A stretch of DNA of 64,000 nucleotides from Bacteroidales bacterium (GTDB taxonomy: Bacteria > Bacteroidota > Bacteroidia > Bacteroidales > WCHB1-69), in the NCBI GenBank assembly GCA_024400785.1, contig JAKSME010000002.1, forward strand, positions 9,598 to 73,597, given 5' to 3'. The translations under genes and the position numbers were made by a program. The notes beneath the pieces are model-generated. The model did no database searches and was not told where the DNA came from. It saw only the letters and a program-made list of their open reading frames with translations. Every line of letters starts with the position of its first letter. Within the stretch, counting starts at the first letter, position 1. This document shows, piece after piece, positions 25,219-39,607 of this stretch.

Positions 25219-26019
25219 CTATTTCATCGTTTCGCGGCGAACGATACGGGTAAGAATGGGTGTTTTAATATTCAGCGGGGTAATTTTTGAGAAGAAGTGC
25301 CCGACTGGGTTGACTAAGATTTCGCGTTTTCCGAGCAGCGTTTCCAACACGCATTTTTTAGCGACATGCTGCGTAGATACCAAGGTCAGTTTGCCCAAAT
25401 GCCCTTGTTTTTGGATTCGCGCAATGATGTCGGGGCTTGTTGCCATGGCGCCGGGGCATACCACGCTGACTGACAATCCTTTCTTACGGTATTCGGCTCG
25501 CAAGCTCATAGAGAAATTGTAGATGAAAGCCTTGCTGGCGGGGTAAACCATTTTGTAACCGATGGGGGTGAGGGCGGCCATACTGGCAACATTCAGCACA
25601 TAACTCTTATCTTGACGTAATAAATTATCAATCAATAATTTAGTTAGTAATGTTGTAGCTTTGACGTTCAAGTCCAAAATTTTTTCCACATACTCAACCC
25701 CTACCTCTTCAAAACAGCGAGATCCGCCGATACCGGCATTGTTAATCAGAAGAAAAACCTCATACTTGCTATTGATTTCTTGTGCGGCATCGAAGAGGCT
25801 TTGTCGGTTCGTTAAATCCGCAACAATATATTGAGAATCAACATGATAAGTATTTCTCAATTCAGTACAAAATGCCGAAATTTGGTCATTTGAGCTAACT
25901 AGAATCGGGTTGATTCCGCATCGGGCGAGTTCAATGGAAAAAGACTTGCCCAGTCCGCGGCTGGCTCCGGTAACCACGGCATATTTTCCGTTAATTTTTT
26001 CCTTCAGCGATTTCAGCAT
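25219..26019 (-). CDS. SDR family oxidoreductase
   Basis: AVVTGASRGLG cofactor motif, NNAG, and catalytic YPASK. Confidence 0.85.
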   Translation of the reverse strand: MLKSLKEKINGKYAVVTGASRGLGKSFSIELARCGINPILVSSNDQISAFCTELRNTYHVDSQYIVADLTNRQSLFDAAQEINSKYEVFLLINNAGIGGSRCFEEVGVEYVEKILDLNVKATTLLTKLLIDNLLRQDKSYVLNVASMAALTPIGYKMVYPASKAFIYNFSMSLRAEYRKKGLSVSVVCPGAMATSPDIIARIQKQGHLGKLTLVSTQHVAKKCVLETLLGKREILVNPVGHFFSKITPLNIKTPILTRIVRRETMK

Positions 26020-28734: not shown

Positions 28735-28832
28735 CTCACAAAAAAAGCCCGAGGTGCTGCCTCGGGCTTTACTTTTATCCATGCTTAATTACTTTCTCAC
28801 ACACTGCATAATGCTGTGGCCCAAGCCCAAAC
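28735..28832. repeat. right copy of the ~97-bp direct repeat
   Basis: Begins 1 nt after the fic stop codon. Contains the hairpin and the true 3' end of the methyltransferase gene. Confidence 0.9.
28747..28767. terminator. bidirectional hairpin terminator between convergent fic and methyltransferase genes
   Basis: GCCCGAGG-TGCTG-CCTCGGGC, a perfect 8-bp stem, flanked by A7 on the left and TTTACTTTT on the right. Confidence 0.7.
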
Positions 28833-29871
28833 CGTCGTGGACGGTTTCGATTTTCAGTCCGACGCTCTCGACACAGCGGGCCATGTCATCATAATAGTAC
28901 ATTTTGCTGTTTCCGTTGGCGAGTGCGGTGAAATAGAGACTGATTTGCGCCAAGCAATAGGAAGCCGTTTCGAAACGTTGGCGGTCCCAGAAGGTTTCCA
29001 TGATGTAGAGCTTGCTGTCGACACCCATGGATTGTGCGGCGCGGCGCAGGATGCTACATACCTGTTCCTCTGAAAAACAGTCCAAAAACTGGCTCATCCA
29101 GATGGCATCGAAGCCTGTCGGGAAAGCGGTGGCTTCGTCCAACAGATTGCCACCGTAGCCGTGAATGCGGTCGGCTCCTTCCAAACCGGCGGTGGATTTG
29201 CGCATCATTTCCAACTGCTGCGGAAGGTCCATAATGGTGACATTCACCATTTTATCAAATTTTACACATTGACTGGCCCAACGACCGGTATTACCGCCCA
29301 CATCCAACAGTGTGCGCGGTTGGTTGGCAAAGACAATCTGCAGCGCCTGCTCGAAGGAATTGTCGGAATAAAAATGGTCGAAACCGAACCAACTTTTCTG
29401 CACCTGTGGCGGCAACTGCGACAAACCTTCATAAATGGTCGGCCAAGTGCCAAACACCTTCAAACCTTCCGGCTTGCCGTTCAAAATGGCCTCTTCCAAG
29501 TTAAAAAGTCCCAAATAGTTGACATCGTGGTTAAAGTCCATGTTGACGCGAGCCATGTCGTCGTGCAACAAGAACCAACCCGGCTTTGCCAGATAGAACT
29601 TATTATTTTTCAATAAAACAGTTCCGATGGTAAGTGACGATTCCAGCAGAACTTGCGTTCCGTAATGCGACAAATTGGCCTTTTGGGCCACTTCGTCCAA
29701 GGTCAAACCCTCTTTGCAATCATCCAACATTTGGAAGATGCCGAATTTAACCATCAGGCGGGAGACTTGAAAAACGACAGGGCCGAAGGCGATTTCTTGA
29801 GCCAGGCGCTGTGCCTGCAAAGCTGTAAAGCGTTCTTTAGCGTAAATTTCTTTTTGTGGAGATGATAACAT
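28789..29871 (-). CDS. class I SAM-dependent O-methyltransferase (Methyltransf_2-like with N-terminal dimerisation/wHTH domain)
   Basis: 360 aa; SAM motif LLDVGGNTGRWA; N-terminal helix-rich domain (LTLDEVAQKANLSHYGTQVLLE). Confidence 0.75.
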   Translation of the reverse strand: MLSSPQKEIYAKERFTALQAQRLAQEIAFGPVVFQVSRLMVKFGIFQMLDDCKEGLTLDEVAQKANLSHYGTQVLLESSLTIGTVLLKNNKFYLAKPGWFLLHDDMARVNMDFNHDVNYLGLFNLEEAILNGKPEGLKVFGTWPTIYEGLSQLPPQVQKSWFGFDHFYSDNSFEQALQIVFANQPRTLLDVGGNTGRWASQCVKFDKMVNVTIMDLPQQLEMMRKSTAGLEGADRIHGYGGNLLDEATAFPTGFDAIWMSQFLDCFSEEQVCSILRRAAQSMGVDSKLYIMETFWDRQRFETASYCLAQISLYFTALANGNSKMYYYDDMARCVESVGLKIETVHDGLGLGHSIMQCVRK

Positions 29872-29943
29872 AGGCTAATAAAGGAAAAGGGGGAAACGAC
29901 ACTTATGAGTTTCGTTCCCTCCTTTTGTCATAATAATCTGATT

Positions 29944-31104
29944 TTAATTTTTCATTGCGGCGATGTCGCGGATGGCATCGATAGCGGTTTCAACATCTTT
30001 TTCGGTAGTGAAAGCTCCGATGCTGAAACGGACGGTACCATGAATGTCGATGGTGCCAAGGCCGACATGAACTTTGGGGGCGCAGTGCAGACCGATACGG
30101 CAGGCGATGTCGTAGTCAACATCGAGCATGGTGCCCACGTCGCTGGAATCCCAACCGTTAACATTGAAAGAGAGCACCGGGTTTTGATTTTCGGTGGAGG
30201 TTGCGCAGTAAATTTTCACGCCGTTGATGGTTTTGAGTCCGTCACGCAATTTTTCCCAAAGGGCCATTTCGCGGTTATGGATGTTCATGATTCCCTCTTT
30301 GGTGATCCATTTCACGCCGGCGTAGAGGCGAGCGACACCGAGAAGGTTGAGTGTGCCGGCTTCGAGGCGATAGGGGTATTCTTCGAGGTGGCCGGGAACG
30401 GCTGAACGAACGCCTGTGCCGCCGAAGCGGGTTTGACCGATGGTGATGCCTTCACGCACGTAAGAACCGCCAATACCGGTGGGTCCCATGAGACATTTAT
30501 GGCCAGTAAAGCAGTATACGTCAATATTTTGCGCTTGCATATCCAAATCAACAGCGCCTGCGCCCTGGCTACCGTCGACCACAAAAATGATGCCGTGGTC
30601 GTGGCAAATCTTACCGATTTCTGCCAGAGGTTGAATGGTACCGATGACATTGGAGCAGTGAGTACAAACCATGAATTTAGTGTTGGAGCGGATGGCATTT
30701 TTTACATCCTCCGGTCTAACATAGCCGCGTTCGTCGAACGGGAGGTATGTAACCTCGATTTGGCCGCGCTGTTCGAGGGTATAAAGCGGACGAAGCACGG
30801 AGTTGTGTTCCAACATGGTGGTGATTACGTGAGCGCCGGGGTTGGCGAGGGCAAGCCCCTGAATAATCATGTTAAGGGAGTCGGTTGCGTTATAGCTGAA
30901 AGTCAGACGGTTGAAATCGCCGCCACCGTTGAACAGGTTGGTAAGCATCTTACGGGTGTCTGAAACGAGCTCACCGGTTTCAATCGCAGCGTCAAAGCCG
31001 GAACGACCGGGGTTGACACCATGGGTGCGATAAAAATTGTTCATAAAATCATACACTTCCGTGGGTTTTGGGAAGGAGGTTGCGGAATTGTCTAAATAAA
31101 TCAT
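29944..31104 (-). CDS. aminotransferase class V / cysteine desulfurase family protein
   Basis: MIYLDNSATSFPKP N-terminus, PLP-lysine region FTGHKCLMGPTGIGG, and C-terminal RIGLHCAP resembling the SufS/CsdA-type active-site Cys loop. Confidence 0.85.
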   Translation of the reverse strand: MIYLDNSATSFPKPTEVYDFMNNFYRTHGVNPGRSGFDAAIETGELVSDTRKMLTNLFNGGGDFNRLTFSYNATDSLNMIIQGLALANPGAHVITTMLEHNSVLRPLYTLEQRGQIEVTYLPFDERGYVRPEDVKNAIRSNTKFMVCTHCSNVIGTIQPLAEIGKICHDHGIIFVVDGSQGAGAVDLDMQAQNIDVYCFTGHKCLMGPTGIGGSYVREGITIGQTRFGGTGVRSAVPGHLEEYPYRLEAGTLNLLGVARLYAGVKWITKEGIMNIHNREMALWEKLRDGLKTINGVKIYCATSTENQNPVLSFNVNGWDSSDVGTMLDVDYDIACRIGLHCAPKVHVGLGTIDIHGTVRFSIGAFTTEKDVETAIDAIRDIAAMKN

Positions 31105-31197: not shown

Positions 31198-32064
31198 TTA
31201 GTTATCGGCAATTAATTTGAGCAGGTATTCTCCGTAGCCGCTTTTGCGCAAGGGTTCGGCGATTTCGCGCAATTTCTCTGCATTGATGAACCCCTGGCGA
31301 TAGGCGATTTCTTCGATACAGCCGACCATCAGGCCCTGGCGTTCTTCCACCACCTGTACAAACTGGGTGGCTTCGATGAGAGAGCGGAAAGTCCCGGTGT
31401 CGAGCCATGCGGTACCGCGGTCGATTTTGCAGACTTTCAATTTCTTGTGTTCCAAGTAGTAACGATTAACGTCTGTAATTTCATACTCGCCACGCGCACT
31501 GGGTTTGATGTTGGCGGCCACCTCCACGACAGAGTTGTCATAGAAATAGAGTCCGGGAACAGCGTAATTAGACTTGGGCTGTTTGGGTTTTTCTTCAATG
31601 GAAACGGCATTCATGTTGTTGTCGAACTCCACCACGCCATAGCGTTCGGGGTCGGAAACGTGGTAGGCGAAAACGATACCGCCGTCGGGGTCGTTGTTTT
31701 TATATAAGTTGTGTTCGAACTCGCTTCCGTAAAAGATATTGTCGCCGAGGACGAGGGCGACTTTGTCGTTTCCGATAAACTCGCGGCCGAGGACAAAGGC
31801 CTGGGCGAGACCATTGGGAACTTCTTGCACTTTGTACTCGAAACGGCAACCGATACGGCTTCCGTCTCCCAAAAGTCGTTCAAAATGAGGAAGGTCGGTT
31901 GGAGTGGAAATGATAAGGATTTCACGAATGCCCGCTGACAACAAAGTCGAAAGCGGATAATATATCATCGGTTTGTTATAAATGGGCATCAACTGTTTAC
32001 TCATTGCCAATGTGATGGGGTGTAAACGAGTACCTGCACCGCCCGCCAAAATGATTCCTTTCAT
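31198..32064 (-). CDS. rfbA: glucose-1-phosphate thymidylyltransferase
   Basis: [18 protein letters not shown]...LGDNIFYG...; ~288 aa from the ATG at 32064. The ORF-track extension to 32103 runs through the promoter box. Confidence 0.95.
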
Positions 32065-32092
32065 ACAATTACTAATTTGAAATTTCGAGGTG

Positions 32093-32100
32093 CAAACGTA
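32093..32100 (-). promoter_or_regulatory. -7 promoter box TACGTTTG of rfbA
   Basis: Complement reads TGTACGTTTGCAC, 28 nt upstream of the ATG at 32064. Confidence 0.6.
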
Positions 32101-32136
32101 CAAATATTTTCACTTTTTTACAAGCTAAAAATGTTG

Positions 32137-32144
32137 TACTTTTG
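32137..32144 (+). promoter_or_regulatory. -7 promoter box TACTTTTG of the Hdr-like operon
   Basis: GTTGTACTTTTGCAC, 25 nt upstream of the ATG at 32170; divergent from the rfbA promoter. Confidence 0.6.
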
Positions 32145-32169
32145 CACTTGATTTTTCTAATAAAAAATC

Positions 32170-32772
32170 ATGGGAAATCTTTACAATTTACTCTCACAGG
32201 ACAGCCGTTTCAACGGAGCTTTAAAGGCCTGTATGAATTGCGGGATTTGCACTGCGATTTGTCCGGCAGCTGAATTTTTTGATTACGACCCGCGCCGCAT
32301 CTGCGACACGGTACAACGCAAAGACGAGAACGCCATCGAGGAATTGATGCGCTCGGAGGTCATTTGGGCGTGCGGCCAATGTTTGTCATGCAAAGCGCGC
32401 TGTCCCCGTGGAAACGCTCCTGGAGAAATCATCCTGATTCTCCGCAAATACGCGCAACAACTCGGTTATTTCAACGAGCATATCAAAGAACAACAACGCC
32501 GCATGGCCGCTGTTCAAGGCAACAACATTCTGCAAACGGGTTACTGCGTCCATCCCGACTTGGTGACCCCGGAAATGCACCCCGAACAAGGTCCGATTTG
32601 GGAATGGTATGTGGAAAACATCATCGACATAGCGCCCAAACTCGGTGCCAACTACCACGGAGAGGGCCCTGGCGCACTCCGCGAAATCCATCAGAAAAAT
32701 CTTGAAGAAATCCGCAAAATTTACGAAGTCACCGGAGGCATGGACCTCCACCACCTCTTGCTTGAAGACTGA
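32170..32772 (+). CDS. HdrC-like 4Fe-4S dicluster protein
   Basis: CMNCGICTAICP ... CGQCLSCKARCP, two ferredoxin-type cluster motifs with the long spacer typical of HdrC/SdhB-C-terminal-like proteins; 200 aa. Confidence 0.7.
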   Translation: MGNLYNLLSQDSRFNGALKACMNCGICTAICPAAEFFDYDPRRICDTVQRKDENAIEELMRSEVIWACGQCLSCKARCPRGNAPGEIILILRKYAQQLGYFNEHIKEQQRRMAAVQGNNILQTGYCVHPDLVTPEMHPEQGPIWEWYVENIIDIAPKLGANYHGEGPGALREIHQKNLEEIRKIYEVTGGMDLHHLLLED

Positions 32773-32802
32773 TATCTTTTTCTAACCCAAACTATTTATA
32801 AT

Positions 32803-33132
32803 ATGATAAATTTCGGTTATAGTATCGCGCCGACGCGAGTTGTAAACCTCGACAACTGCGATTTTGACAAATTGCAACAGTTGGAACGAATCGTTCCTTC
32901 TTTTAAAAGATGTATCAACTGTGGTGCCTGCACCGCCACTTGCAGCGCGCAACAGTTCACCCATTTCAATATCAGAAAAATCAAATCCTTATTTCAAGAA
33001 GCACAATATGAAAAGTTGGCCAAAGAGCTCGACAAGTGCATGTTGTGCGGCAAATGCACGCTGGTTTGTCCGCGCGGACTGAACCTGCGTCCCATCATTA
33101 TGAATATGAGGAAAATTCTCAATACAAAATAA
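32803..33132 (+). CDS. small HdrC-like 4Fe-4S dicluster protein
   Basis: CINCGACTATCS ... CMLCGKCTLVCP; 109 aa. Confidence 0.6.
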   Translation: MINFGYSIAPTRVVNLDNCDFDKLQQLERIVPSFKRCINCGACTATCSAQQFTHFNIRKIKSLFQEAQYEKLAKELDKCMLCGKCTLVCPRGLNLRPIIMNMRKILNTK

Positions 33133-33137
33133 TCGCC

Positions 33138-34919
33138 ATGGACAACTACTTTCATCCTTTTGTCATTCCGTTTGTATTGGGAGCCATATTTCTTTTTGGG
33201 ATCTGTATATGGAAATATGTACGTTGGTTCAAACATTTCGACCGCTTGCAACGGGCTGTCATCCGGAAAAACATTTTCTCCTGGAAATTCATTCCAGCGG
33301 TATGGGAAGTGATTCGCGAAGGACTTTTGCACATCCGCATTTCGCGTAAAAATCTGATACTTGGCTACATGCACCGGAGCATCGCTTTCGGTTGGGCTTT
33401 GCTCATCATCGTGGGTTTTGTAGAAAGTCGCCTAACGCCCACCATCGATGGCTCGCATCCGTTCTGGATGGCCATCTTCTACCGGTTCTTCTTCCATTCG
33501 CACGGCACCTTTGCTGGTGCCCATGTGCTGACCGCCATCATGGATTTTCTCTTGCTGTATGTGTTGTCGGGCATTCTGTTGGCAGTCATCAAGAAATGTT
33601 ATTCCAAGGCCTTAGGAATGAAAAAGGCCACCAAGCATGTTGTTTTCGACCGCTTTGCCAAGGCTTCCTTGTGGTGCATTTTCCCATTCCGACTGCTAAG
33701 TGAATCTCTCACTGCCTGCATTTATCACAACGGCGGATTTTTCACCCAATTCATCGGAAACCTCATCCCGACCGAATTTGCACTCACCTTTGAAATGACG
33801 TCATGGACGCTCTATTCTTTTGCGTTAGGCACCTTCTTCGTCTCGCTTCCATTCTCGCGCTACATGCATATTTTTACAGAAATGGTACTCATTTTCTTCC
33901 GGGAATGGGGCGTGCGCGAAAAACACGAACGCACCGGTTACACCATGTACGAACTGAGTGCCTGTTCGCGCTGCGGTATGTGCATCGACAACTGTCCGTT
34001 AAATAAAGAGCTGGGTATCAACAATGTACAGTCTGTTTATTTTCTAAGGGATTTGCGTTACAAAAAGAACAAACCAGAAATTGCCGACAACTGTTTGATG
34101 TGTGCACGCTGTGCCTCCGACTGTCCGGTGAATATTGACTTGATGGCCATCCGCCAACAGGAACGCAACAAACGGAATTTCGACACCGAGGGCAATTACC
34201 ACTATCTCGACAATGTTCAACCCTTCAATGCAATTGGACGTATCGGCTACTTCGGCGGGTGTATGTCGCACCTCACTCCCGGCATTACGGAATCAATGAA
34301 AACCATCTTCGAAGTCGCCGGACAGCGTTACTGGTTCATGGACGAAGACCGCTCCATCTGCTGCGGCCGTCCGCTGCTGCAACAAGGCTACAACCAACAA
34401 GCTGCCGAGTTGCGCCGCAAACTTACCGAACTGATAAAGAAGTCGAAAGTCACCATGCTGGTCACCTCCTGCCCCATCTGCTATCAAACTTTCAAAAAGG
34501 ATTACAAACTCAACATCCCGGTCATCCATCACACCGAATACCTCAACATGCTCATCAAGAGCGGCCTTATCAAAGTCCGCATGGACGATCTGAAAACCGT
34601 TTACCACGATCCGTGTGAGCTGGGAAGGGGTTGCGGCATTTACAAAGAGCCGCGTCAGGTATTGCAAGCCACCACGCATCTTGTCAAAGCCAAACAGGAA
34701 GGCGAAGACAGTTTGTGCTGCGGCATCAACCTGGGCGACACACTTATTGACATCAACCAGCAGAAAAAAATCCGCGATGCGGCAGTGGAAAACCTCATGC
34801 ACAGAAAACCCGACTTGATTGCCACCGCCTGTCCGATGTGCAAGAAAGCTTTTGTTCATTCCACTACGTTGCCGGTGAAAGATATTGCGGAGATTGTGAG
34901 GGAGAATCTGAGAAGTTAG
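33138..34919 (+). CDS. membrane-anchored (Fe-S)-binding protein: NarI/DsrM-like TM domain fused to an HdrD/DsrK-like domain
   Basis: Start at the ATG at 33138 (MDNYFHPF...). About 6 TM helices with conserved His (YMHRS, FHSHG, SRYMHIF). Then CSRCGMCIDNCP and CLMCARCASDCP, then two complete CCG domains (GGCMSH...ICCGRP...SCPICY; HDPCELGRGCG...LCCGIN...ACPMCK). Confidence 0.7.
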   Translation: MDNYFHPFVIPFVLGAIFLFGICIWKYVRWFKHFDRLQRAVIRKNIFSWKFIPAVWEVIREGLLHIRISRKNLILGYMHRSIAFGWALLIIVGFVESRLTPTIDGSHPFWMAIFYRFFFHSHGTFAGAHVLTAIMDFLLLYVLSGILLAVIKKCYSKALGMKKATKHVVFDRFAKASLWCIFPFRLLSESLTACIYHNGGFFTQFIGNLIPTEFALTFEMTSWTLYSFALGTFFVSLPFSRYMHIFTEMVLIFFREWGVREKHERTGYTMYELSACSRCGMCIDNCPLNKELGINNVQSVYFLRDLRYKKNKPEIADNCLMCARCASDCPVNIDLMAIRQQERNKRNFDTEGNYHYLDNVQPFNAIGRIGYFGGCMSHLTPGITESMKTIFEVAGQRYWFMDEDRSICCGRPLLQQGYNQQAAELRRKLTELIKKSKVTMLVTSCPICYQTFKKDYKLNIPVIHHTEYLNMLIKSGLIKVRMDDLKTVYHDPCELGRGCGIYKEPRQVLQATTHLVKAKQEGEDSLCCGINLGDTLIDINQQKKIRDAAVENLMHRKPDLIATACPMCKKAFVHSTTLPVKDIAEIVRENLRS

Positions 34920-34961
34920 TGGAAGGTTAGTGGAAGTTCGTGGAAAGGTGAAAGAGTGGAA
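34919..34961 (+). repeat. GTGGAA/GTGAAA hexamer array 1
   Basis: GTGGAA at 34919, 34930, 34940 and 34956; GTGAAA at 34948. Starts on the last base of the upstream stop codon and ends 27 nt before the next ATG. Confidence 0.85.
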
Positions 34962-34987
34962 ACGAGAAAAAATTAGAATAAAAAAAT

Positions 34988-36043
34988 ATGACAAAGAGAT
35001 TTTGGAACGAGTATCAGAAGGAGATTGCAGACGACCATTTTTTCTATGAAAGGAGCTGCATCCGGCAGACTTTTTTCCCAGGGTCGGAGACGGCGTTTTT
35101 GCGCATCATGCGTGAGGAATTGCACAAAGACATCCGTGATGAGGCGAACCAGCACACCTGCACCGGCATCGGTTATCACAGCGACTTTGTGCCGTTGGAA
35201 ACCACGATGACGGTGGTGGCCCGCCTGTTTTCTCTGATGACAGAAGCGGGTTATACCAACTACGTTCCCTCTTGTGTCACCTCCTTCGGCATTTTTTCAG
35301 AAATGTTAGAAATGTGGAAAGAAGACCCCGCACTGTTGGAACAGACCCGCCAATATCTGCGCAAGGCCACCGGCCGCGAGTTCGAGGTCCCCACCAATCT
35401 GGTACATCCTTCCGACATCATCTACAAATTCCGCGAGGAGTTGAAGCAGAACATGAAATACCAACTGGTGAACCGTTTTACGGGCAAACCGTTAAAGGTG
35501 GTGGAACATGTGGGCTGTCACTATGCCAAAATATTTCCAGAGCAAGGCATTGGCAAATCGGAATTTCCGCACGTTCTGGCCGGCATGATTGAATCGTGGG
35601 GCGGCGAAGTGGTCGACTACCCGGAACGCCGCCACTGCTGCGGCTTCGGCTTCCGACACTACTTGTTGCAAGAAAACCGCGGCTACTCTGTCGCCAACTC
35701 CAAAAAGAAGTTCGAATCCATGGAACCCTACGAACCCGACTTCATCGTTTGCAACTGCCCCGGATGTACCATGTTCATGGACAAATGGCAGTACACCATC
35801 GCGGAAATGGAAAATAAAACCTACGACCGCGACGGCTACGGAATCCCCGTGCTTACATACGAAGAAATGGCCGGTCTGCTCCTCGGCTACAACCCGTGGG
35901 AACTCGGTCTGCAAATTCACCAAGTACAGTCAGAAAAACTAATGGACAAGATTGGCATCAAGTACGACCCTGATGAGAAATATCGTGGAGTGAATGGAAA
36001 AATCCTTCCCAAACCGCACAAACCAAGTTTCTTGAAACAGTGA
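34988..36043 (+). CDS. HdrB-like CCG-domain protein
   Basis: 351 aa. Degenerate first CCG domain (CIRQ...HTCTGIG...SCVTSF) and a complete second one (GCHYAK...HCCGFGF...CNCPGC). Confidence 0.7.
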   Translation: MTKRFWNEYQKEIADDHFFYERSCIRQTFFPGSETAFLRIMREELHKDIRDEANQHTCTGIGYHSDFVPLETTMTVVARLFSLMTEAGYTNYVPSCVTSFGIFSEMLEMWKEDPALLEQTRQYLRKATGREFEVPTNLVHPSDIIYKFREELKQNMKYQLVNRFTGKPLKVVEHVGCHYAKIFPEQGIGKSEFPHVLAGMIESWGGEVVDYPERRHCCGFGFRHYLLQENRGYSVANSKKKFESMEPYEPDFIVCNCPGCTMFMDKWQYTIAEMENKTYDRDGYGIPVLTYEEMAGLLLGYNPWELGLQIHQVQSEKLMDKIGIKYDPDEKYRGVNGKILPKPHKPSFLKQ

Positions 36044-36046
36044 TTG

Positions 36047-36098
36047 GTGAAAACGTGGAAACGTGGAAACGTGGAATATTCCATCAACACAATTCCAC
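36047..36098 (+). repeat. GTGGAA/GTGAAA hexamer array 2 with terminal hairpin
   Basis: GTGAAA at 36047; GTGGAA at 36055, 36063 and 36071 (exact 8-nt period, ACGTGGAA x3). GTGGAAT (36071-77) pairs with ATTCCAC (36092-98), and TGGAATATTCCA is a palindrome. Lies between convergent genes. Confidence 0.85.
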
Positions 36099-36108
36099 CG
36101 CTGAATTA

Positions 36109-36649: not shown

Positions 36650-39607
36650 TTAATATTTGATGATTTTTTGAGTAAACTGAAGTTCGTTCTGGATAAGTTG
36701 GATGTAGTAAATTCCTGACTTTATACTTTCAAAATTGATTTTTGTTTCATTTTCCAAACAATTTTCGCTCCAAACCAGCTGACCATAGGCATTATATATG
36801 CGGATTTCTGTTTCAACCCCGGGAGCGAGCCCGCTGATGACACATTCGTTTTGCACCGGATTCGGATAAATGGAAATTTGTGAGGAAGCGGTTTCTTCAA
36901 CACCCACATTGCCCACGGTAATAATGTAATGAATGACGCTGTCGCAGCCATAAACGGTTTGATATTCCTTCTCCAGTGTGAAAATCCCTGCTTGGTCTGA
37001 ATAGAAATCGTAGTCACCCAATTGAACGTGTTCGCCGAGAGCAAGCGACAGATTGACAGTGTTTTCGTAACTCGGGTGGAGCGTAAGGTGAATGATGAGC
37101 GTGCTGTCTACACCACCGATGCCGGCCCCCGGATAATAGAAAGTATAATCACCGTCCATGGTCAACACTTCGCCTTCATAAACAAACGGAGAGCATTCTT
37201 CAAGCGTAAGGTCTCCAAATGCTTCATTGCCAGAAGTTACATAAAAGATATAATGTATAATGCTGTCGCAACCATTCACAGTAGTATAGATGCGGTCGTA
37301 GGCAAAAGTACCAACGGCAACGGCAATGTGCGGTTCGTCTTCTACATAATAAATATCACCCAAATTCACCGTATTGGCAACATTCAGGGAATATGACGGA
37401 TAAATGGTGAGGTGAAGGGTGAGAATGCTGTCGGCGTAGTTGGTGCCTTGCGCGGGATATTCGAAACTATAGTCTCCAGAAGCTGTAAAAGTCTCTCCTT
37501 CGTAGGTATAACTAACGCAGGATGCAGCATACAGGTCTGAATAAACGGGGGCGGCTGCCCTTACCACAACAATGTAATGAATGATGCTGTCGCAGCCATG
37601 AACCGACTGAAGGTTCACATCATACGTGAAAATTCCCGGAACGGAAGCCGTGTGAGAATCAGTGCCGATTTGGTAGGTGTCGCCAACAACGTAGGAATTG
37701 GAGTCGGTGACATAATAGGTTGGATGGATGGTAAGACTGAGCATGAGGATGCTGTCGTTGTAATTTTGAGCGGCATAGGGAAAGAAGAAGGAGTAACAGC
37801 CGGAGACAGTGAAGGTTTGTCCGTTGATGGTATACGAACCGCACGCCTCTACGCTCATGTTTTCAGTAACGGTGTCATGGTCCGCCAGAATCACGTAAAC
37901 GGTGACAGGAACGCGCTCGCTCACACAAGTTGCCTCGCCGCTGATGGCTTGTTCTTCCACGTAATAAGTGGTGGTTTGGGTGAGGACAGGCGTGGTGAAA
38001 GTGTTTCCCGTTGCCAGCGGTGTGGCGGCAGTGACAGAGGCATACCACTTGATGGTGCGAGTGGAGGTTGCCGTCAGTGTGGCGGTTGCGCCCATAGGAA
38101 TATGTTGGTCGGCTACCTGCGGAGCGGAAACGAGCGGCTGGAGTTGCACATCATGGCGCACACACGCTCCGTCGGTGGTGGTGACGGTGAAAGTCTGCGG
38201 CTCGTAGCAGTCGGCGGAAACTGTAACCGAGTATGTGCCGGCCTTGATGGGGCGATGGTAGTTGCCCACCGGCTGGTGCGAATAAACCTCGGAATTGAAA
38301 GTGTCGTGGTTGTTAACGAAAATTTTGGCTTCGACGGGTTCGCCGGTCACAGCATCGGTAACAATGCCGCGGAAACCGTACAAACACTCCTCAATGTAAC
38401 TGAGCAGCGCGACTTTGCTGTTGGTCCAATACGTAGGAAGTTCTGAAGTTGAAGTCACCACTTTGTCGAAATGCGCTTCGATGGTAACTTCGCGGCAATG
38501 TTGGTAGTAATTCATGTAGTCTTGGCGCGAACCGTCGATAACGTACCAATCGCCGCCCTCGGTTACTGCGCCGCAACCGGGCTGATAGGCAGTTTCACCC
38601 ACCATATAGCTGGCGTCAACTTCGTGACAGTGGTCCACGTAACCATGACAAATGTATTGGAACCAGTCGGCATCGGGATGGGCACGGTCGTCGGTTTCCC
38701 ACGAATCCCACGGATAGTTGGTCAATTCAGCCCCGCCGTGAAAATTGACAGACATCACAAAGTGTTTGTCAGCCACCCAGTTGATGACGGCCTGTGTTTC
38801 GGGTTGCACGTTGGCACTTCCGGAAATACCAGGAACGAAGGGATAGTTACGGTTCAAATCGACATTGTTGTAGTTGTAACGCTGGGAAGCCGAAGAACTG
38901 ATTTGCGTGTTGCTGCTTTTGTAAGTTCCGTCGGGATTTTCGAGCGGGCAGATGTAAAGGTCGACATTCTGGAGAATATTCTGTACCTGCGGGTCGGTAG
39001 TGGCGTTATTCAGGATGTAATTAATAAGTTGGAGCATCATGTAATAACCCACAACTTCGTCGCCGTGCATGGTAGAAGAATAGAAGAAAGCGGGTTTGTC
39101 GGCCGGCTGACCGAGGGTGGAACTGATATGGGCGGCAAGAAGCATGTGCGGACGAGTGGGGTTGGGCGTGGCCGCGAGGATGGTGTCGATTTTACAGATG
39201 TTCGGGAAATTGGTTTCAAAGGTATGCATCAACTGCACGTAAACATCGTATGCGGGATATTTGTTCCAATTGGCAGTGAAGTCGGAAAGGGTGGTTGACA
39301 CCATGCTGCTGCCGGGAGGGCGTTCGGGAGTGATAATTTCAAACGGCAGGTTTTGGGCGAGGAAGCTTTCATACTCGTGGCGGGCGAGGTAGACTTTTAC
39401 CTGATATTGGCCGCTACGGGCGTCGAAATGACAATTGTCGACTGAGAAATTTTTCGACAGCTGATTCACCTCTGCTTTGGTGTTGACCTGAGTATTCACA
39501 TATAGGAAATCCCTATCAGTATTTCGCAAATCGTCAGGCGTACTTTGGGCAAAAGTTGTCAGCAACACACCGAAACAAAAGAGAATGGAAAGGATGAGTT
39601 TTTTCAT
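36650..39607 (-). CDS. secreted M14 zinc carboxypeptidase with three tandem repeat domains and a T9SS C-terminal sorting domain
   Basis: Signal peptide; M14 motifs (SSTMHGDEVVG, DLNRNYP, NFHGGAE). Three ~107-aa repeats, each ending in (V/Y)(H/N)GCDS(I/V)IHYI. C-terminal ISIYPNPVQNE...GIYYIQL...QKIIKY matches the type A T9SS CTD. Confidence 0.8.
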   Translation of the reverse strand: MKKLILSILFCFGVLLTTFAQSTPDDLRNTDRDFLYVNTQVNTKAEVNQLSKNFSVDNCHFDARSGQYQVKVYLARHEYESFLAQNLPFEIITPERPPGSSMVSTTLSDFTANWNKYPAYDVYVQLMHTFETNFPNICKIDTILAATPNPTRPHMLLAAHISSTLGQPADKPAFFYSSTMHGDEVVGYYMMLQLINYILNNATTDPQVQNILQNVDLYICPLENPDGTYKSSNTQISSSASQRYNYNNVDLNRNYPFVPGISGSANVQPETQAVINWVADKHFVMSVNFHGGAELTNYPWDSWETDDRAHPDADWFQYICHGYVDHCHEVDASYMVGETAYQPGCGAVTEGGDWYVIDGSRQDYMNYYQHCREVTIEAHFDKVVTSTSELPTYWTNSKVALLSYIEECLYGFRGIVTDAVTGEPVEAKIFVNNHDTFNSEVYSHQPVGNYHRPIKAGTYSVTVSADCYEPQTFTVTTTDGACVRHDVQLQPLVSAPQVADQHIPMGATATLTATSTRTIKWYASVTAATPLATGNTFTTPVLTQTTTYYVEEQAISGEATCVSERVPVTVYVILADHDTVTENMSVEACGSYTINGQTFTVSGCYSFFFPYAAQNYNDSILMLSLTIHPTYYVTDSNSYVVGDTYQIGTDSHTASVPGIFTYDVNLQSVHGCDSIIHYIVVVRAAAPVYSDLYAASCVSYTYEGETFTASGDYSFEYPAQGTNYADSILTLHLTIYPSYSLNVANTVNLGDIYYVEDEPHIAVAVGTFAYDRIYTTVNGCDSIIHYIFYVTSGNEAFGDLTLEECSPFVYEGEVLTMDGDYTFYYPGAGIGGVDSTLIIHLTLHPSYENTVNLSLALGEHVQLGDYDFYSDQAGIFTLEKEYQTVYGCDSVIHYIITVGNVGVEETASSQISIYPNPVQNECVISGLAPGVETEIRIYNAYGQLVWSENCLENETKINFESIKSGIYYIQLIQNELQFTQKIIKY

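What the first reader, a model, noticed from the sequence alone, without database searches (positions are those of the whole stretch)
32137..36043. Four-gene heterodisulfide-reductase-like module (HdrC-like x2, membrane DsrMK/HdrED-like fusion, HdrB-like) without any flavoprotein partner
Seen: one promoter (32137) drives four genes.
- A 200-aa and a 109-aa protein, each with two CxxCxxCxxxCP motifs spaced as in HdrC.
- A 593-aa protein. It fuses ~6 TM helices with conserved His residues (NarI/DsrM/HdrE-like heme-b candidate) to two ferredoxin motifs and two complete CCG domains (Cx~35CCGx~38CxxC, twice), like HdrD/DsrK.
- A 351-aa HdrB-like protein with one degenerate and one complete CCG domain.
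- No HdrA/FAD protein, hydrogenase, Dsr/Qmo/Apr or Lut gene is adjacent. The neighbours are rfbA and cdd.

Established: CCG domains bind the non-cubane [4Fe-4S] clusters that reduce disulfides in Hdr/DsrK, and membrane HdrE/DsrM subunits connect them to the quinone pool.

Inference: this is a menaquinol-linked thiol/disulfide (or related) oxidoreductase of unknown substrate in an anaerobic Bacteroidales. I do not know of a characterised equivalent.
Basis: partly seen in the sequence, partly recalled or inferred. Interest (0 to 1): 0.6.

Follow-up and report, generated by a model that had tools for sequence, protein, structure and literature searches.

The report
Menaquinone-linked Hdr-like iron-sulfur complex operon
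Four co-transcribed genes in an uncultured gut or rumen Bacteroidales bacterium encode a membrane-anchored chain of iron-sulfur proteins, related to heterodisulfide reductase and to the mycobacterial ETF:menaquinone oxidoreductase, that most likely passes electrons from a sulfur or thiol compound to the quinone pool; the family is abundant in anaerobic Bacteroidia and nobody has studied it.

Summary
The four ORFs and their Fe-S motifs are real: A 32170-32772, B 32803-33132, C 33138-34919, D 34988-36043. They follow the only Bacteroidota -7 box in the region. None reaches a curated family cutoff.

- **C has a characterised structural relative.** Its AlphaFold model matches mycobacterial EtfD (ETF:menaquinone oxidoreductase, EMO) over the full length. 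It has five TM helices, N-out/C-in. EtfD's two haem-b ligands have counterparts (His79, His244). Unlike EMO, both CCG motifs are complete, as in HdrD.
- **D is an HdrB homologue.** Its N-terminal cluster site is degenerate across the whole family.
- **"No flavoprotein partner" is lineage-specific.** It holds for this window and its eight nearest relatives. Elsewhere in Bacteroidia (Alistipes, Rikenellaceae, Marinilabiliaceae, most rumen Bacteroidales) the Fd-C core sits beside a short sHdrA-type HdrA. The orders are hdrC-hdrB-hdrA-fd-C or VOC-hdrC-fd-C-hdrB-hdrA. This cluster often directly follows a sulfonolipid operon.
- **The genes are functional.** All four are under strong purifying selection.

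Best reading: a menaquinone-coupled Hdr-type complex that carries electrons from a cytoplasmic thiol or sulfane-sulfur substrate to menaquinone. The substrate is unknown. It is a new variant of a known kind, uncharacterised and so far seen only in Bacteroidia.

The parts
32137..32144 (+). Candidate Bacteroidota sigma-A -7 box (TACTTTTG), 33 nt upstream of the ATG of A
   Evidence: It is the only TAnnTTTG on the + strand in 31900-36100. No TTTG -33 element was seen. Function was not tested.
32170..32772 (+). Gene A: HdrC-like subunit (200 aa), two cubane [4Fe-4S] motifs plus an HdrC-type C-terminal extension
   Evidence: NCBIfam HdrC 89.6 bits (cutoff 350), aligned over residues 18-162. PDB HdrC 5odc_C E 2.7e-12. 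The 8 motif Cys are conserved in 56-59 of 59 homologues. C45, C126 and H137 are also invariant.
32803..33132 (+). Gene B: small 2x[4Fe-4S] ferredoxin-like connector (109 aa)
   Evidence: Pfam Fer4_8/Fer4_7. The 8 Cys are invariant in 63/63. It lies immediately upstream of C in every locus examined.
33138..33932 (+). Gene C, residues 1-265: 5-TM membrane domain (N-out/C-in) with candidate haem-b ligands His79 and His244; His65 is also invariant
   Evidence: AF2 helices 7-32, 73-99, 128-154, 169-196, 212-239. Positive-inside rule. Invariant His. H79 and H244 align to EtfD H78 and H241 (weak alignment). No Pfam model matches, even at E<=10.
33933..34187 (+). [quoted passage not shown]
   Evidence: Pfam Fer4_8 over 272-333. 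Cys invariant.
34230..34919 (+). Gene C, residues 365-593: two complete CCG (non-cubane cluster) domains, HdrD/HdrB-like
   Evidence: Pfam CCG twice, 78 bits. PDB EtfD 9ojn_A E 6e-23 by profile. All 10 CCG Cys invariant.
34988..36043 (+). Gene D: HdrB-like subunit (351 aa); C-terminal CCG complete, N-terminal CCG reduced to three Cys (C24, C58, C96) plus conserved H56/H64
   Evidence: NCBIfam HdrB 136.6 bits (cutoff 450). PDB HdrB 9sfi_C E 9e-27 over 22-323. The degenerate site is shared by all Bacteroidia D-type proteins, unlike a canonical HdrB. It is the most conserved subunit, 77-93% identity.
34912..34969 (+). Tandem GTGGAA-type repeats in the C-D intergenic gap (role unknown)
   Evidence: The sequence is not conserved in relatives, which carry other short tandem repeats at the same place.
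36044..36076 (+). Tandem GTGAAAAC/GTGGAAAC repeats (8-nt period) right after the stop codon of D, followed by the palindrome GTGGAATATTCCA

Best explanation
The operon encodes a membrane-anchored, menaquinone-coupled Hdr-type iron-sulfur complex.

- C is the quinone-facing subunit. It has a 5-TM cytochrome-b domain, with one haem b held by His79/His244 near the cytoplasmic face. This is fused to a cytoplasmic HdrC-like domain (two cubane clusters) and an HdrD-like domain (two non-cubane clusters). EtfD/EMO and HdrDE are built the same way.
- A and D form an HdrC/HdrB-like pair. D has a single intact non-cubane cluster site.
- B is a small two-cluster ferredoxin that links the pair to C.

Proposed mechanism (inferred): electrons taken from a cytoplasmic thiol or sulfane-sulfur substrate at D, and possibly also at C's own CCG domain, pass through the cubane clusters of A and B into C. 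They then go through haem b to menaquinone. Fumarate reductase reoxidises the menaquinol.

In most of the family a short HdrA-type FAD/[4Fe-4S] protein is part of this chain. In this lineage it is not encoded at the locus.

Shown: the domain composition, the fold, ligand conservation, topology, operon conservation and purifying selection.
Inferred: that the four proteins assemble, that haem and menaquinone bind, the direction of electron flow and the substrate.
For: - Domain composition and motifs.
- C's model is confident (pLDDT 87, pTM 0.77). It matches M. smegmatis EtfD over the full length (Foldseek E 7e-21, TMq 0.63, 739 columns). EtfD carries electrons from ETF to menaquinone through CCG clusters, cubane clusters and one haem b (PMC13083937).
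- C's H79 and H244 fall on EtfD's haem ligands H78 and H241. Both are invariant across 25 representatives at 35-58% identity.
- Topology is N-out/C-in, and all conserved His are on the cytoplasmic half.
- A-B-C-D synteny holds in about 59 of 80 species-level loci. B-C adjacency holds in every locus examined.
- Purifying selection is strong on all four genes: pN 0.04-0.15 against saturated pS 0.67-0.97.
- A matches HdrC, including its HdrB-binding C-terminal part. D matches HdrB end to end.
- Direction: the single proximal haem matches EtfD (the 'MsEMO' of the EMO preprint). [quoted passage not shown] Menaquinone (-74 mV) is more positive than common thiol/disulfide couples (established values).
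- In an Alistipes MAG the cluster lies about 4 kb from the frdCAB-type operon.
Against: - No cofactor, complex or activity has been observed.
- The alignment of the membrane domain to EtfD is below significance by sequence. It rests on the fold match and on matching positions.
- No coordinates were available to check His-His geometry or cluster distances.
- Invariant His65 is unexplained.
- C keeps both catalytic-type CCG motifs, so C alone could be the catalyst and D something else.
- No thiol-cofactor, sulfurtransferase or lipoate-binding gene is linked.
- The usual flavoprotein partner is missing here. The chain proposed for this window (D-A-B-C) may therefore be incomplete, or the partner may be encoded elsewhere in the genome.
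Confidence: 0.5

Rival explanations
1. One reading: a menaquinol-oxidising heterodisulfide (or DsrC-type) reductase, like HdrDE or DsrMK. Menaquinol reduces a cytoplasmic disulfide at the CCG clusters of C and/or D.
For: C has both complete CCG motifs, as catalytic HdrD does, and unlike EMO/EtfD where the distal site is degenerate. Among NCBIfam models the best matches to the soluble part are TfrB, LdhH, GlpC and DsrK.
Against: Menaquinol (-74 mV) is a poor reductant for ordinary disulfides. The family has no conserved His pair on the periplasmic half of the membrane domain, so it has no di-haem path to harness the proton-motive force. No DsrC, thiol-cofactor or acceptor gene is linked. All scores are far below curated cutoffs.
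Confidence: 0.2
2. A pure electron-entry module in the EMO style. The non-cubane clusters of C and D act only as wires. The complex feeds electrons from a soluble redox protein (an HdrA-type flavoprotein encoded elsewhere, or reduced ferredoxin) into the menaquinone pool, with no thiol chemistry.
For: In EMO and EtfD the CCG clusters are electron-transfer sites, not catalytic ones. The minimal family form is flavoprotein-Fd-C with no HdrB or HdrC. D's distal site is degenerate, as in EMO.
Against: C's CCG sites keep every catalytic-type cysteine, including the bridging CxxC cysteines that EtfD has replaced. D is the most conserved subunit, which is unusual for a mere wire. No ETF genes are linked.
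Confidence: 0.2
3. A specific case of the best explanation: an sHdr-like enzyme that oxidises protein-bound or low-molecular-weight sulfane sulfur to sulfite anaerobically, with menaquinone as acceptor. The sulfite supplies cysteate synthase for sulfonolipid (capnine) synthesis.
For: - Composition and order in relatives (hdrC-hdrB-short hdrA-small protein-CCG/membrane protein) parallel shdrC1B1AH plus B3/emo of type II sHdr, which is proposed to pass electrons to menaquinone.
- The HdrA partner has the short sHdrA architecture (6tjr matched over 3-331).
- In 19 of the 81 loci analysed (80 fetched plus the window; species-level genomes) a sulfonolipid operon accompanies the cluster. It directly precedes it in most and lies nearby in other orientations in the rest.
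- The operon includes a SulA orthologue (640 bits to 7u7h, with the diagnostic Lys), a cysteate-synthase-like PLP enzyme and an SDR. SDR-to-next-gene gaps are as small as 9-21 bp.
- Cysteate synthase consumes sulfite (established).
Against: - LbpA, TusA, DsrE and rhodanese genes, which always accompany sHdr (PMC11094781), are absent from all loci.
- D has only one intact non-cubane site.
- The sulfonolipid linkage is missing from this window and from the divergent members, including the Alistipes MAG.
- The linked loci come from a few related lineages, so shared ancestry could explain the synteny.
Confidence: 0.12
4. It is the membrane or Fe-S part of a known substrate dehydrogenase (GlpABC, LutABC/LldEFG, GlcDEF, type E succinate:quinone reductase, TfrAB) whose catalytic flavoprotein lies elsewhere.
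For: Weak profile similarity of C and D to GlpC, LdhH, GlcF, SdhE and TfrB. LutA is the second Foldseek hit, for the CCG half only.
Against: All scores are 3- to 20-fold below curated cutoffs. No GlpA/B, LutB/C, GlcD/E or SdhA/B partner lies adjacent to the cluster in any locus examined. An Alistipes MAG has a separate frd operon about 4 kb downstream. The conserved partners are HdrA-, HdrB- and HdrC-like instead.
Confidence: 0.03

Closest known systems
EtfD / EMO (ETF:(methyl)menaquinone oxidoreductase; M. smegmatis EtfD PDB 9ojn, Syntrophus aciditrophicus EMO)
   Same: C has the same single-chain, three-domain design: a 5-TM b-type cytochrome domain, two cubane clusters and two CCG domains, N-out/C-in. 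The fold matches over the full length. Both proximal haem ligands have counterparts. As in mycobacterial EtfD, there is probably only a cytoplasm-side haem.
   Different: - Only 17% identity.
- C keeps both complete CCG cysteine sets, whereas EMO and EtfD have a degenerate distal site.
- The third His conserved in EMO-type domains (Sa H233 / Ms H223) is absent. C has an invariant His65 instead.
- No etfAB is nearby. The partners are HdrC-, HdrB- and HdrA-like proteins and a small ferredoxin.
- C lacks EtfD's roughly 265-residue disordered C-terminal tail.
sHdr, the sulfur-oxidising heterodisulfide-reductase-like complex (type I shdrC1B1AHC2B2; type II shdrC1B1AHB3-etfAB-emo)
   Same: Relatives share the gene order hdrC-hdrB-hdrA followed by a small protein and a second CCG protein. 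HdrA is short (about 340 aa), as sHdrA is. Type II sHdr is also proposed to deliver electrons to menaquinone through an EMO.
   Different: - No LbpA, lipoate ligase, TusA, DsrE or rhodanese genes.
- No etfAB.
- The EMO-like and second CCG functions are fused in one protein.
- D has one intact non-cubane site, whereas sHdrB1 is described with two.
- The hosts are strictly anaerobic fermenters, not sulfur oxidisers.
- HdrA is missing from this window.
HdrDE, the membrane-bound heterodisulfide reductase of Methanosarcina
   Same: HdrD equals an HdrC-like domain plus two complete CCG domains, as in the soluble part of C. HdrE is a 5-TM b-type cytochrome. The overall shape is reported to resemble EMO.
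   Different: HdrD and HdrE are two separate polypeptides with methanophenazine as partner and CoM-S-S-CoB as substrate. Bacteroidia are not known to make CoM/CoB (general knowledge; not tested here). The extra subunits A, B and D have no HdrDE counterpart.
HdrABC, the soluble heterodisulfide reductase of methanogens
   Same: A matches HdrC and D matches HdrB by sequence over nearly their full length. The HdrA-like partner in relatives has the HdrA signature CxGSRD...CSxxCC.
   Different: Scores are below the equivalog cutoffs. D's N-terminal non-cubane site is degenerate. The HdrA partner lacks the ferredoxin and N-terminal domains needed for bifurcation to ferredoxin. The complex is tied to the membrane.
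QmoABC and DsrMK(JOP) of sulfate reducers
   Same: Both are HdrA-like flavoproteins and/or HdrD-like CCG proteins wired to a NarI-type membrane cytochrome b that exchanges electrons with menaquinone.
   Different: QmoC has no CCG domains, and DsrM and DsrK are separate proteins. The NCBIfam QmoC and DsrK models score 45 and 54 bits against cutoffs of 300 and 400. No apr, dsrAB or dsrC genes are linked.

Membership tests
EMO / EtfD (ETF:menaquinone oxidoreductase) | Single chain: 5-TM cytochrome-b domain + two-cubane domain + CCG (NCB) domain, with a matching fold | tested here: met
   AF2 model. Foldseek full-length hit to 9ojn, E 7e-21, TMq 0.63. Profile hit 84 bits over the soluble part.
EMO / EtfD (ETF:menaquinone oxidoreductase) | Proximal haem-b His pair (Ms H78/H241; Sa H87/H251) | tested here: met
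   H79 and H244 align to H78 and H241 (sub-significant alignment). Both are invariant in 25 divergent representatives.
EMO / EtfD (ETF:menaquinone oxidoreductase) | Third conserved His of EMO-type membrane domains (Sa H233 / Ms H223, 18 residues before the TM-V ligand) | tested here: not met
   No His at or near position 226. W223 and Y226 are invariant there instead.
EMO / EtfD (ETF:menaquinone oxidoreductase) | Variable or degenerate distal non-cubane site (non-catalytic) | tested here: not met
   Both CCG cysteine sets of C are complete and invariant.
EMO / EtfD (ETF:menaquinone oxidoreductase) | Works with EtfAB (genomic or functional association) | tested here: not met
   No ETF genes in the window, nor in the 93 related loci by Pfam or cluster inspection. 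Functional coupling is not testable here.
sHdr (sulfur-oxidising Hdr-like complex) | Syntenic core shdrC1-B1-A-H plus C2B2 or B3 | tested here: inconclusive
   Relatives have hdrC-hdrB-hdrA-fd-C. The window has hdrC-fd-C-hdrB with no hdrA. Orthology to the sHdr subunits could not be tested because no reference sequences or models were available.
sHdr (sulfur-oxidising Hdr-like complex) | Always accompanied by LbpA and sulfurtransferases (TusA, DsrE, rhodanese) | tested here: not met
   None among the recurrent flanking clusters or the Pfam-annotated contexts. The requirement is stated in PMC11094781.
HdrABC (CoB-CoM heterodisulfide reductase) | NCBIfam equivalog scores for HdrB and HdrC | tested here: not met
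   D 136.6 against cutoff 450. A 89.6 against cutoff 350.
HdrABC (CoB-CoM heterodisulfide reductase) | HdrB with two complete CCG motifs (two catalytic non-cubane clusters) | tested here: not met
   D's N-terminal site is C...TC...CxxS.
HdrABC (CoB-CoM heterodisulfide reductase) | Long bifurcating HdrA encoded with HdrBC | tested here: not met
   There is no HdrA in the 64 kb. Relatives have only a short HdrA of about 316-346 aa.
HdrDE (membrane heterodisulfide reductase) | HdrD-type soluble part: two cubane motifs plus two complete CCG motifs | tested here: met
HdrDE (membrane heterodisulfide reductase) | Reduces CoM-S-S-CoB with methanophenazine; the host makes CoM/CoB | not testable with these tools
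   The host is a Bacteroidales bacterium. No cofactor data are available.
DsrMK / HmcEF / TmcBC | NCBIfam equivalog scores for DsrK, HmcF and TmcB | tested here: not met
   53.9 against 400, 24.5 against 750 and 37.6 against 735.
QmoABC | QmoC equivalog score, and linkage to aprAB | tested here: not met
   A scores 44.8 against cutoff 300. No apr genes in any locus.
GlpC / LutA-LdhH / GlcF / SdhE / TfrB | Curated equivalog scores and the cognate flavoprotein partner genes | tested here: not met
   C scores TfrB 104.7/385, LdhH 90/800, GlpC 61/278 and GlcF 43.5/333. D scores SdhE 46/500. No partner genes lie adjacent to the cluster.
NarI-type cytochrome b (Pfam Nitrate_red_gam and relatives) | Sequence-profile match of the membrane domain | tested here: not met

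The most novel reading that the evidence does not exclude
Anaerobic Bacteroidia may possess a previously unrecognised, menaquinone-dependent sHdr-like enzyme that oxidises sulfane sulfur to sulfite without oxygen. That would provide the missing sulfite source for cysteate synthase, and therefore for sulfonolipids, which are host-active lipids of gut Alistipes and Bacteroidales. The window would carry a stripped-down four-subunit version that works without the HdrA flavoprotein.
Probability: 0.12. Interest if true: 0.8.

Novelty: new variant of a known kind. Interest (0 to 1): 0.55.

Why it matters
- **Size and neglect.** The family is large: more than 7,000 sequences share words with C, and one variant is listed in 511 blocks of the collection. 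Full-length members were seen only in anaerobic Bacteroidia. Every source name seen is generic, such as "(Fe-S)-binding protein" or "Fe-S oxidoreductase". No paper found in the searched library describes it.
- **Physiology.** It would add an unrecognised entry or exit point to the menaquinone pool of dominant gut and rumen fermenters, whose respiratory chains are usually described with Nqr, Nuo-like complexes and fumarate reductase.
- **Enzymology.** It is a natural hybrid between the two known uses of non-cubane clusters. It has the catalytic HdrD-type cysteine set in an EMO/EtfD-type scaffold. That bears on the open question of how EMO evolved from Hdr.
- **Sulfonolipids.** If the link to the sulfonolipid operon is functional, it would bear on where anaerobes get the sulfite for cysteate.
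- **Tractability.** Members in Alistipes MAGs suggest that cultured Alistipes may carry it, which would make it testable by experiment.

Tried and rejected
- The sigma-70 promoter and terminator scan gave chance-level hits and is the wrong model for Bacteroidota. I replaced it with a TAnnTTTG scan.
- An exact look-up of C found no identical protein on record.
- I considered membership in GlpC, LutA/LdhH, GlcF, SdhE, TfrB, DsrK, HmcF, TmcB, QmoC, HdrB and HdrC. I rejected all of them on curated cutoffs.
- A di-haem NarI-like arrangement using H65/H167 as distal ligands was rejected. H167 is not conserved in divergent members (14/25), and both residues lie on the cytoplasmic side.
- I looked for ETF, DsrC, TusA/DsrE, LbpA and hydrogenase genes in B-C-only loci and in the recurrent flanking clusters. 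Only housekeeping genes were found: Dxr, RseP, LptF/G, RecA, RelA, MazG, PdxJ and dihydroorotase, recognised from their sequences.
- TatA/TatC sit next to the cluster in the Bacteroidaceae-type loci. I judged this coincidental, because A-D have no twin-arginine signal.
- A decaying remnant that lost HdrA was rejected because purifying selection is strong.
- Searches for cultured-organism names among close homologues of C and of the Prevotellaceae-type variant returned only MAGs. Alistipes MAGs appeared only when querying with a Rikenellaceae member.
- Literature searches for Hdr in Bacteroidales, Prevotella or Alistipes returned only methanogen, sulfate-reducer or metagenome-survey papers.
- The supplementary sequences for verified cysteate synthases are not held. 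Cluster 8 therefore stays "cysteate/threonine-synthase-like".

Full report
**1. The observation**

The + strand between 32137 and 36043 carries four ORFs:

| Gene | Coordinates | Length |
|---|---|---|
| A | 32170-32772 | 200 aa |
| B | 32803-33132 | 109 aa |
| C | 33138-34919 | 593 aa |
| D | 34988-36043 | 351 aa |

- C's length is counted from the ATG. The mechanical ORF begins at a GTG at 33036, but homologues begin at the ATG.
The first motif of B ends in CS rather than CP.
- The intergenic gaps are 30, 5 and 68 bp.
- TACTTTTG at 32137 is the only Bacteroidota-type -7 box (TAnnTTTG) on this strand in the whole 4.2 kb. One promoter for four genes is therefore plausible but untested.
- The flanking genes are on the opposite strand and are ordinary. 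RfbA, Cdd, a cysteine-desulfurase-family protein and a FlxJ-family methyltransferase all score above their NCBIfam cutoffs. Further out lie LptD, an ECF sigma factor, LpxK, a heptosyltransferase, a Fic protein and DapA.
- tblastn with the partner proteins found in relatives shows no HdrA-like, VOC, SulA or cysteate-synthase-like gene anywhere in the 64 kb.

**2. What the four proteins are**

Pfam sees only Fer4-type and CCG domains. Every NCBIfam hit is far below its curated cutoff:

| Protein | Model | Score / cutoff |
|---|---|---|
| A | HdrC | 89.6 / 350 |
| D | HdrB | 136.6 / 450 |
| C | TfrB | 104.7 / 385 |
| C | LdhH | 90 / 800 |
| C | GlpC | 61 / 278 |
| C | DsrK | 54 / 400 |

- These are Hdr-like proteins that belong to no named equivalog.
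- Against solved structures, D aligns end to end with methanogen HdrB (9sfi_C, E 9e-27). A aligns with HdrC (5odc_C, E 2.7e-12).
- In D the C-terminal CCG set is complete (C177, C217-C218, C257, C260).
- D's N-terminal set is reduced to C24, C58 and C96: "TC" in place of "CC" and "CxxS" in place of "CxxC".
- All Bacteroidia D-type proteins that I aligned share this degeneracy. A canonical HdrB from locus L091 keeps all the cysteines.

**3. The large subunit**

- The best solved relative of C is 9ojn, M. smegmatis EtfD, by sequence and by profile (E 5e-17 and 6e-23).
- EtfD (the Rv0338c family) is the membrane oxidoreductase that carries electrons from ETF to menaquinone. It has five TM helices, one haem b on His78/His241, two cubane clusters, one non-cubane cluster and one linear [3Fe-4S] cluster (PMC13083937).
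- The Syntrophus homologue EMO has the same three domains, with three haems (bioRxiv 10.64898/2026.08.18.745454).
- An AlphaFold2 model of C, built from 49 homologues, is confident (pLDDT 87.3, pTM 0.77). It shows five long helices: 7-32, 73-99, 128-154, 169-196 and 212-239.
- Foldseek matches the model to EtfD over the full length (E 7e-21, TMq 0.63, 739 columns). Every other hit covers only the CCG half.
- The positive-inside rule gives N-out/C-in:

| Side | Segment | Mean K+R, family-wide |
|---|---|---|
| Cytoplasmic | loop 1 | 8.2 |
| Cytoplasmic | loop 3 | 4.0 |
| Cytoplasmic | after TM5 | 3.9 |
| Periplasmic | N-terminus | 0.4 |
| Periplasmic | loop 2 | 1.7 |
| Periplasmic | loop 4 | 0.1 |

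- Among 25 family representatives at 35-58% identity, the invariant membrane-domain histidines are H65, H79 and H244. H167 is kept in only 14 of 25.
- In the profile alignment H79 and H244 fall exactly on EtfD's haem ligands H78 and H241. That part of the alignment is below significance.
- All three invariant His lie on the cytoplasmic half, and no conserved pair exists on the periplasmic half. The likely cofactor set is therefore one proximal haem, as in mycobacterial EtfD.
- The third His conserved in EMO-type domains has no counterpart in C.
- Unlike EtfD and EMO, whose distal non-cubane site is degenerate, C keeps all ten CCG cysteines. These include the bridging CxxC cysteines that are catalytic in HdrB.
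- No Pfam model recognises the membrane domain, even at E<=10.

**4. The family and its usual partners**

- Word-indexed and exhaustive searches show a compact family. About 27 clusters at 50% identity align over the full length. Beyond them only the CCG region matches, at about 30% identity, in proteins that include archaeal ones.
- Named members are Bacteroidales, Bacteroidaceae, Lentimicrobiaceae, Rikenellaceae, Alistipes and Breznakibacter. All are MAGs with generic names such as "(Fe-S)-binding protein".
- In 80 species-level loci, A-B-C-D is kept in about 59. B-C are adjacent in every locus.
- Most loci are larger than the window's module. A two-domain VOC/glyoxalase-fold protein precedes A in 52 loci. 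A roughly 337-aa flavoprotein follows D in 49 loci.
- That flavoprotein is HdrA-like:
  - It has an N-terminal GxGxxG motif and the HdrA motif CVGSRD...CSKVCC.
  - It scores 243 bits to the NCBIfam HdrA2 model.
  - It scores 215 bits to methanogen HdrA.
  - It matches the short sHdrA of Hyphomicrobium end to end (6tjr, residues 3-331).
- Divergent members show other orders:
  - hdrC-hdrB-hdrA-fd-C in Breznakibacter, in an Alistipes MAG and in two other lineages.
  - Only hdrA-fd-C in a Rikenellaceae MAG and one other MAG.
- The Fd-C pair is therefore the core, and an HdrA-type flavoprotein is its regular companion.
- The window and its eight closest relatives (L001-L008) lack hdrA at the locus. 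The window and L001-L006 also lack VOC.
- The four genes are nevertheless under strong purifying selection: pN 0.04-0.15 against saturated pS 0.67-0.97, and dN/dS below 0.07 wherever it could be computed. The module is functional here.
- I could not test whether hdrA lies elsewhere in this genome.

**5. Neighbourhood clue**

- Of the 81 loci analysed (the 80 fetched plus the window), 19 carry three further genes:
  - an AONS-family enzyme;
  - a threonine/cysteate-synthase-like PLP enzyme with a zinc ribbon;
  - an SDR.
  In most of these 19 loci the trio directly precedes the cluster. In the rest it lies nearby in other orientations. It also occurs in the very prevalent Bacteroidaceae variant P0149.
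- The first of the three is a SulA/CapB orthologue. It scores 640 bits to A. finegoldii SulA (7u7h) and 578 bits to cysteate-C-fatty acyltransferase, against 253 bits to Spt. It keeps the Lys that distinguishes SulA from Spt (PMC9304779).
- Together with the SDR this is the sulfonolipid (capnine) pathway.
- The SDR directly precedes VOC or A on the same strand in 20 loci. The gaps are 9-213 bp, and 21 bp or less in five of them.
- The linkage is absent from the window, which has only an SDR copy at 25219-26019 on the opposite strand inside an LPS gene block. It is also absent from the divergent members, including the Alistipes MAG.
- It is a lead, not proof. Cysteate synthase needs sulfite, and sHdr complexes of sulfur oxidisers make sulfite from sulfane sulfur.
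- The sulfurtransferase and lipoate-binding proteins that always accompany sHdr are missing here.

**6. Mechanism**

Shown:
- domain composition, fold and topology;
- conserved ligands;
- conserved operon;
- purifying selection.

Inferred:
- A and D pair like HdrC and HdrB.
- B bridges them to C. In relatives the path runs via HdrA, as the gene order hdrC-hdrB-hdrA-fd-C suggests.
- C hands electrons through two non-cubane clusters, two cubane clusters and one haem b to menaquinone at a cytoplasm-side site.

Direction:
- Menaquinone (-74 mV) lies above common thiol/disulfide and sulfide/sulfite couples.
- Rough confidences: architecture about 0.85, direction about 0.55, a sulfur or thiol substrate about 0.5.

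Main rivals:
- the reverse direction (0.2);
- a pure EMO-style electron-entry role with no thiol chemistry (0.2);
- the specific sulfite-for-sulfonolipid function (0.12).

**7. Comparison and novelty**

- C works like EtfD/EMO and HdrDE and passes their architecture tests. It fails EMO's tests for the degenerate distal site, the third His and the ETF partner.
- The whole set resembles type II sHdr in composition and order but lacks its defining accessory genes. It reaches no curated cutoff for HdrABC, DsrMK, Qmo, GlpC, Lut, GlcF, SdhE or TfrB.
- I found no paper describing this Bacteroidia cluster.
- It is best filed as a new variant of a known kind: an uncharacterised Hdr/EMO hybrid seen so far only in Bacteroidia. 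The window carries a reduced, flavoprotein-less form.
- Interest is moderate to high for anaerobe bioenergetics and gut sulfur and lipid metabolism. The general logic is familiar and the function is still inferred, which limits the score.

Noticed in passing
window 34912-34969 and 36044-36100: Gene D is bracketed by short tandem repeats. About five GTGGAA-type units at roughly 10-nt spacing lie in the C-D gap. Three GTG(G/A)AAAC units at 8-nt spacing follow D's stop, and after them comes the palindrome GTGGAATATTCCA. GTGGAAAC occurs 8 times in the window against 3.1 expected. Relatives do not share the sequence, but L010, L013 and L014 have their own, different tandem repeats at the same intergenic positions.
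   Followed up: partly
window 28789-31104 (- strand): Upstream on the opposite strand lie a FlxJ-family methyltransferase (616 bits, above cutoff) and an EF2568-type cysteine-desulfurase-family protein (423 bits, above cutoff). A persulfide-forming enzyme about 1 kb from an Hdr-like operon is suggestive, but the pairing is not conserved in related loci.
   Followed up: partly
window 36650-39607 (- strand): A 985-aa ORF has a signal-peptide-like N-terminus. Several internal repeats of about 100 aa each end in a '...GCDS(I/V)IHYI...' motif. The C-terminal tail resembles a T9SS sorting domain. This was seen only in the translation.
   Followed up: no
window 25219-26019 (- strand): This SDR gene is 67% identical to the SDR that, in relatives, directly precedes the VOC-hdrC... 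cluster and belongs to the sulfonolipid trio. Here it sits on the opposite strand, between LpxK and an unannotated 380-aa ORF.
   Followed up: partly
L091:1-12000: A distant CCG/membrane relative of C (676 aa, about 29% identity in the CCG region) lies between OsmC and a GcvH-like (lipoate-binding-type) gene plus an LplA-type ligase. It is divergent from a canonical hdrC-hdrB-hdrA-mvhD-mvhG-mvhA cluster. The association with lipoate-protein genes recalls sHdr-LbpA.
   Followed up: no
L092:6854-19192 and L093 (Alistipes MAG contexts): In an Alistipes MAG the five-gene hdrC-hdrB-hdrA-fd-C unit lies about 4 kb upstream of a fumarate reductase/succinate dehydrogenase operon (membrane subunit, FrdA, FrdB). 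That operon is the main menaquinol sink of these bacteria.
   Followed up: no
L090:9863-11047: A Cys/Met-metabolism PLP enzyme (methionine gamma-lyase / cystathionine lyase type) starts at the last base of C's gene, which suggests translational coupling. A similar gene lies about 8 kb upstream in L084.
   Followed up: no
L081:6674-7813 and equivalent loci L069-L083: TatC and TatA genes sit immediately upstream of the VOC-hdrC-fd-C-hdrB-hdrA cluster, transcribed divergently, in the Bacteroidaceae-type loci. None of the four window proteins (A-D) has a twin-arginine signal.
   Followed up: partly
window 32170-32772 (protein A): Besides the eight cluster-binding cysteines, A has three more invariant residues (C45, C126, H137; 59 of 59 homologues). 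I could not assign them to anything in HdrC.
   Followed up: no
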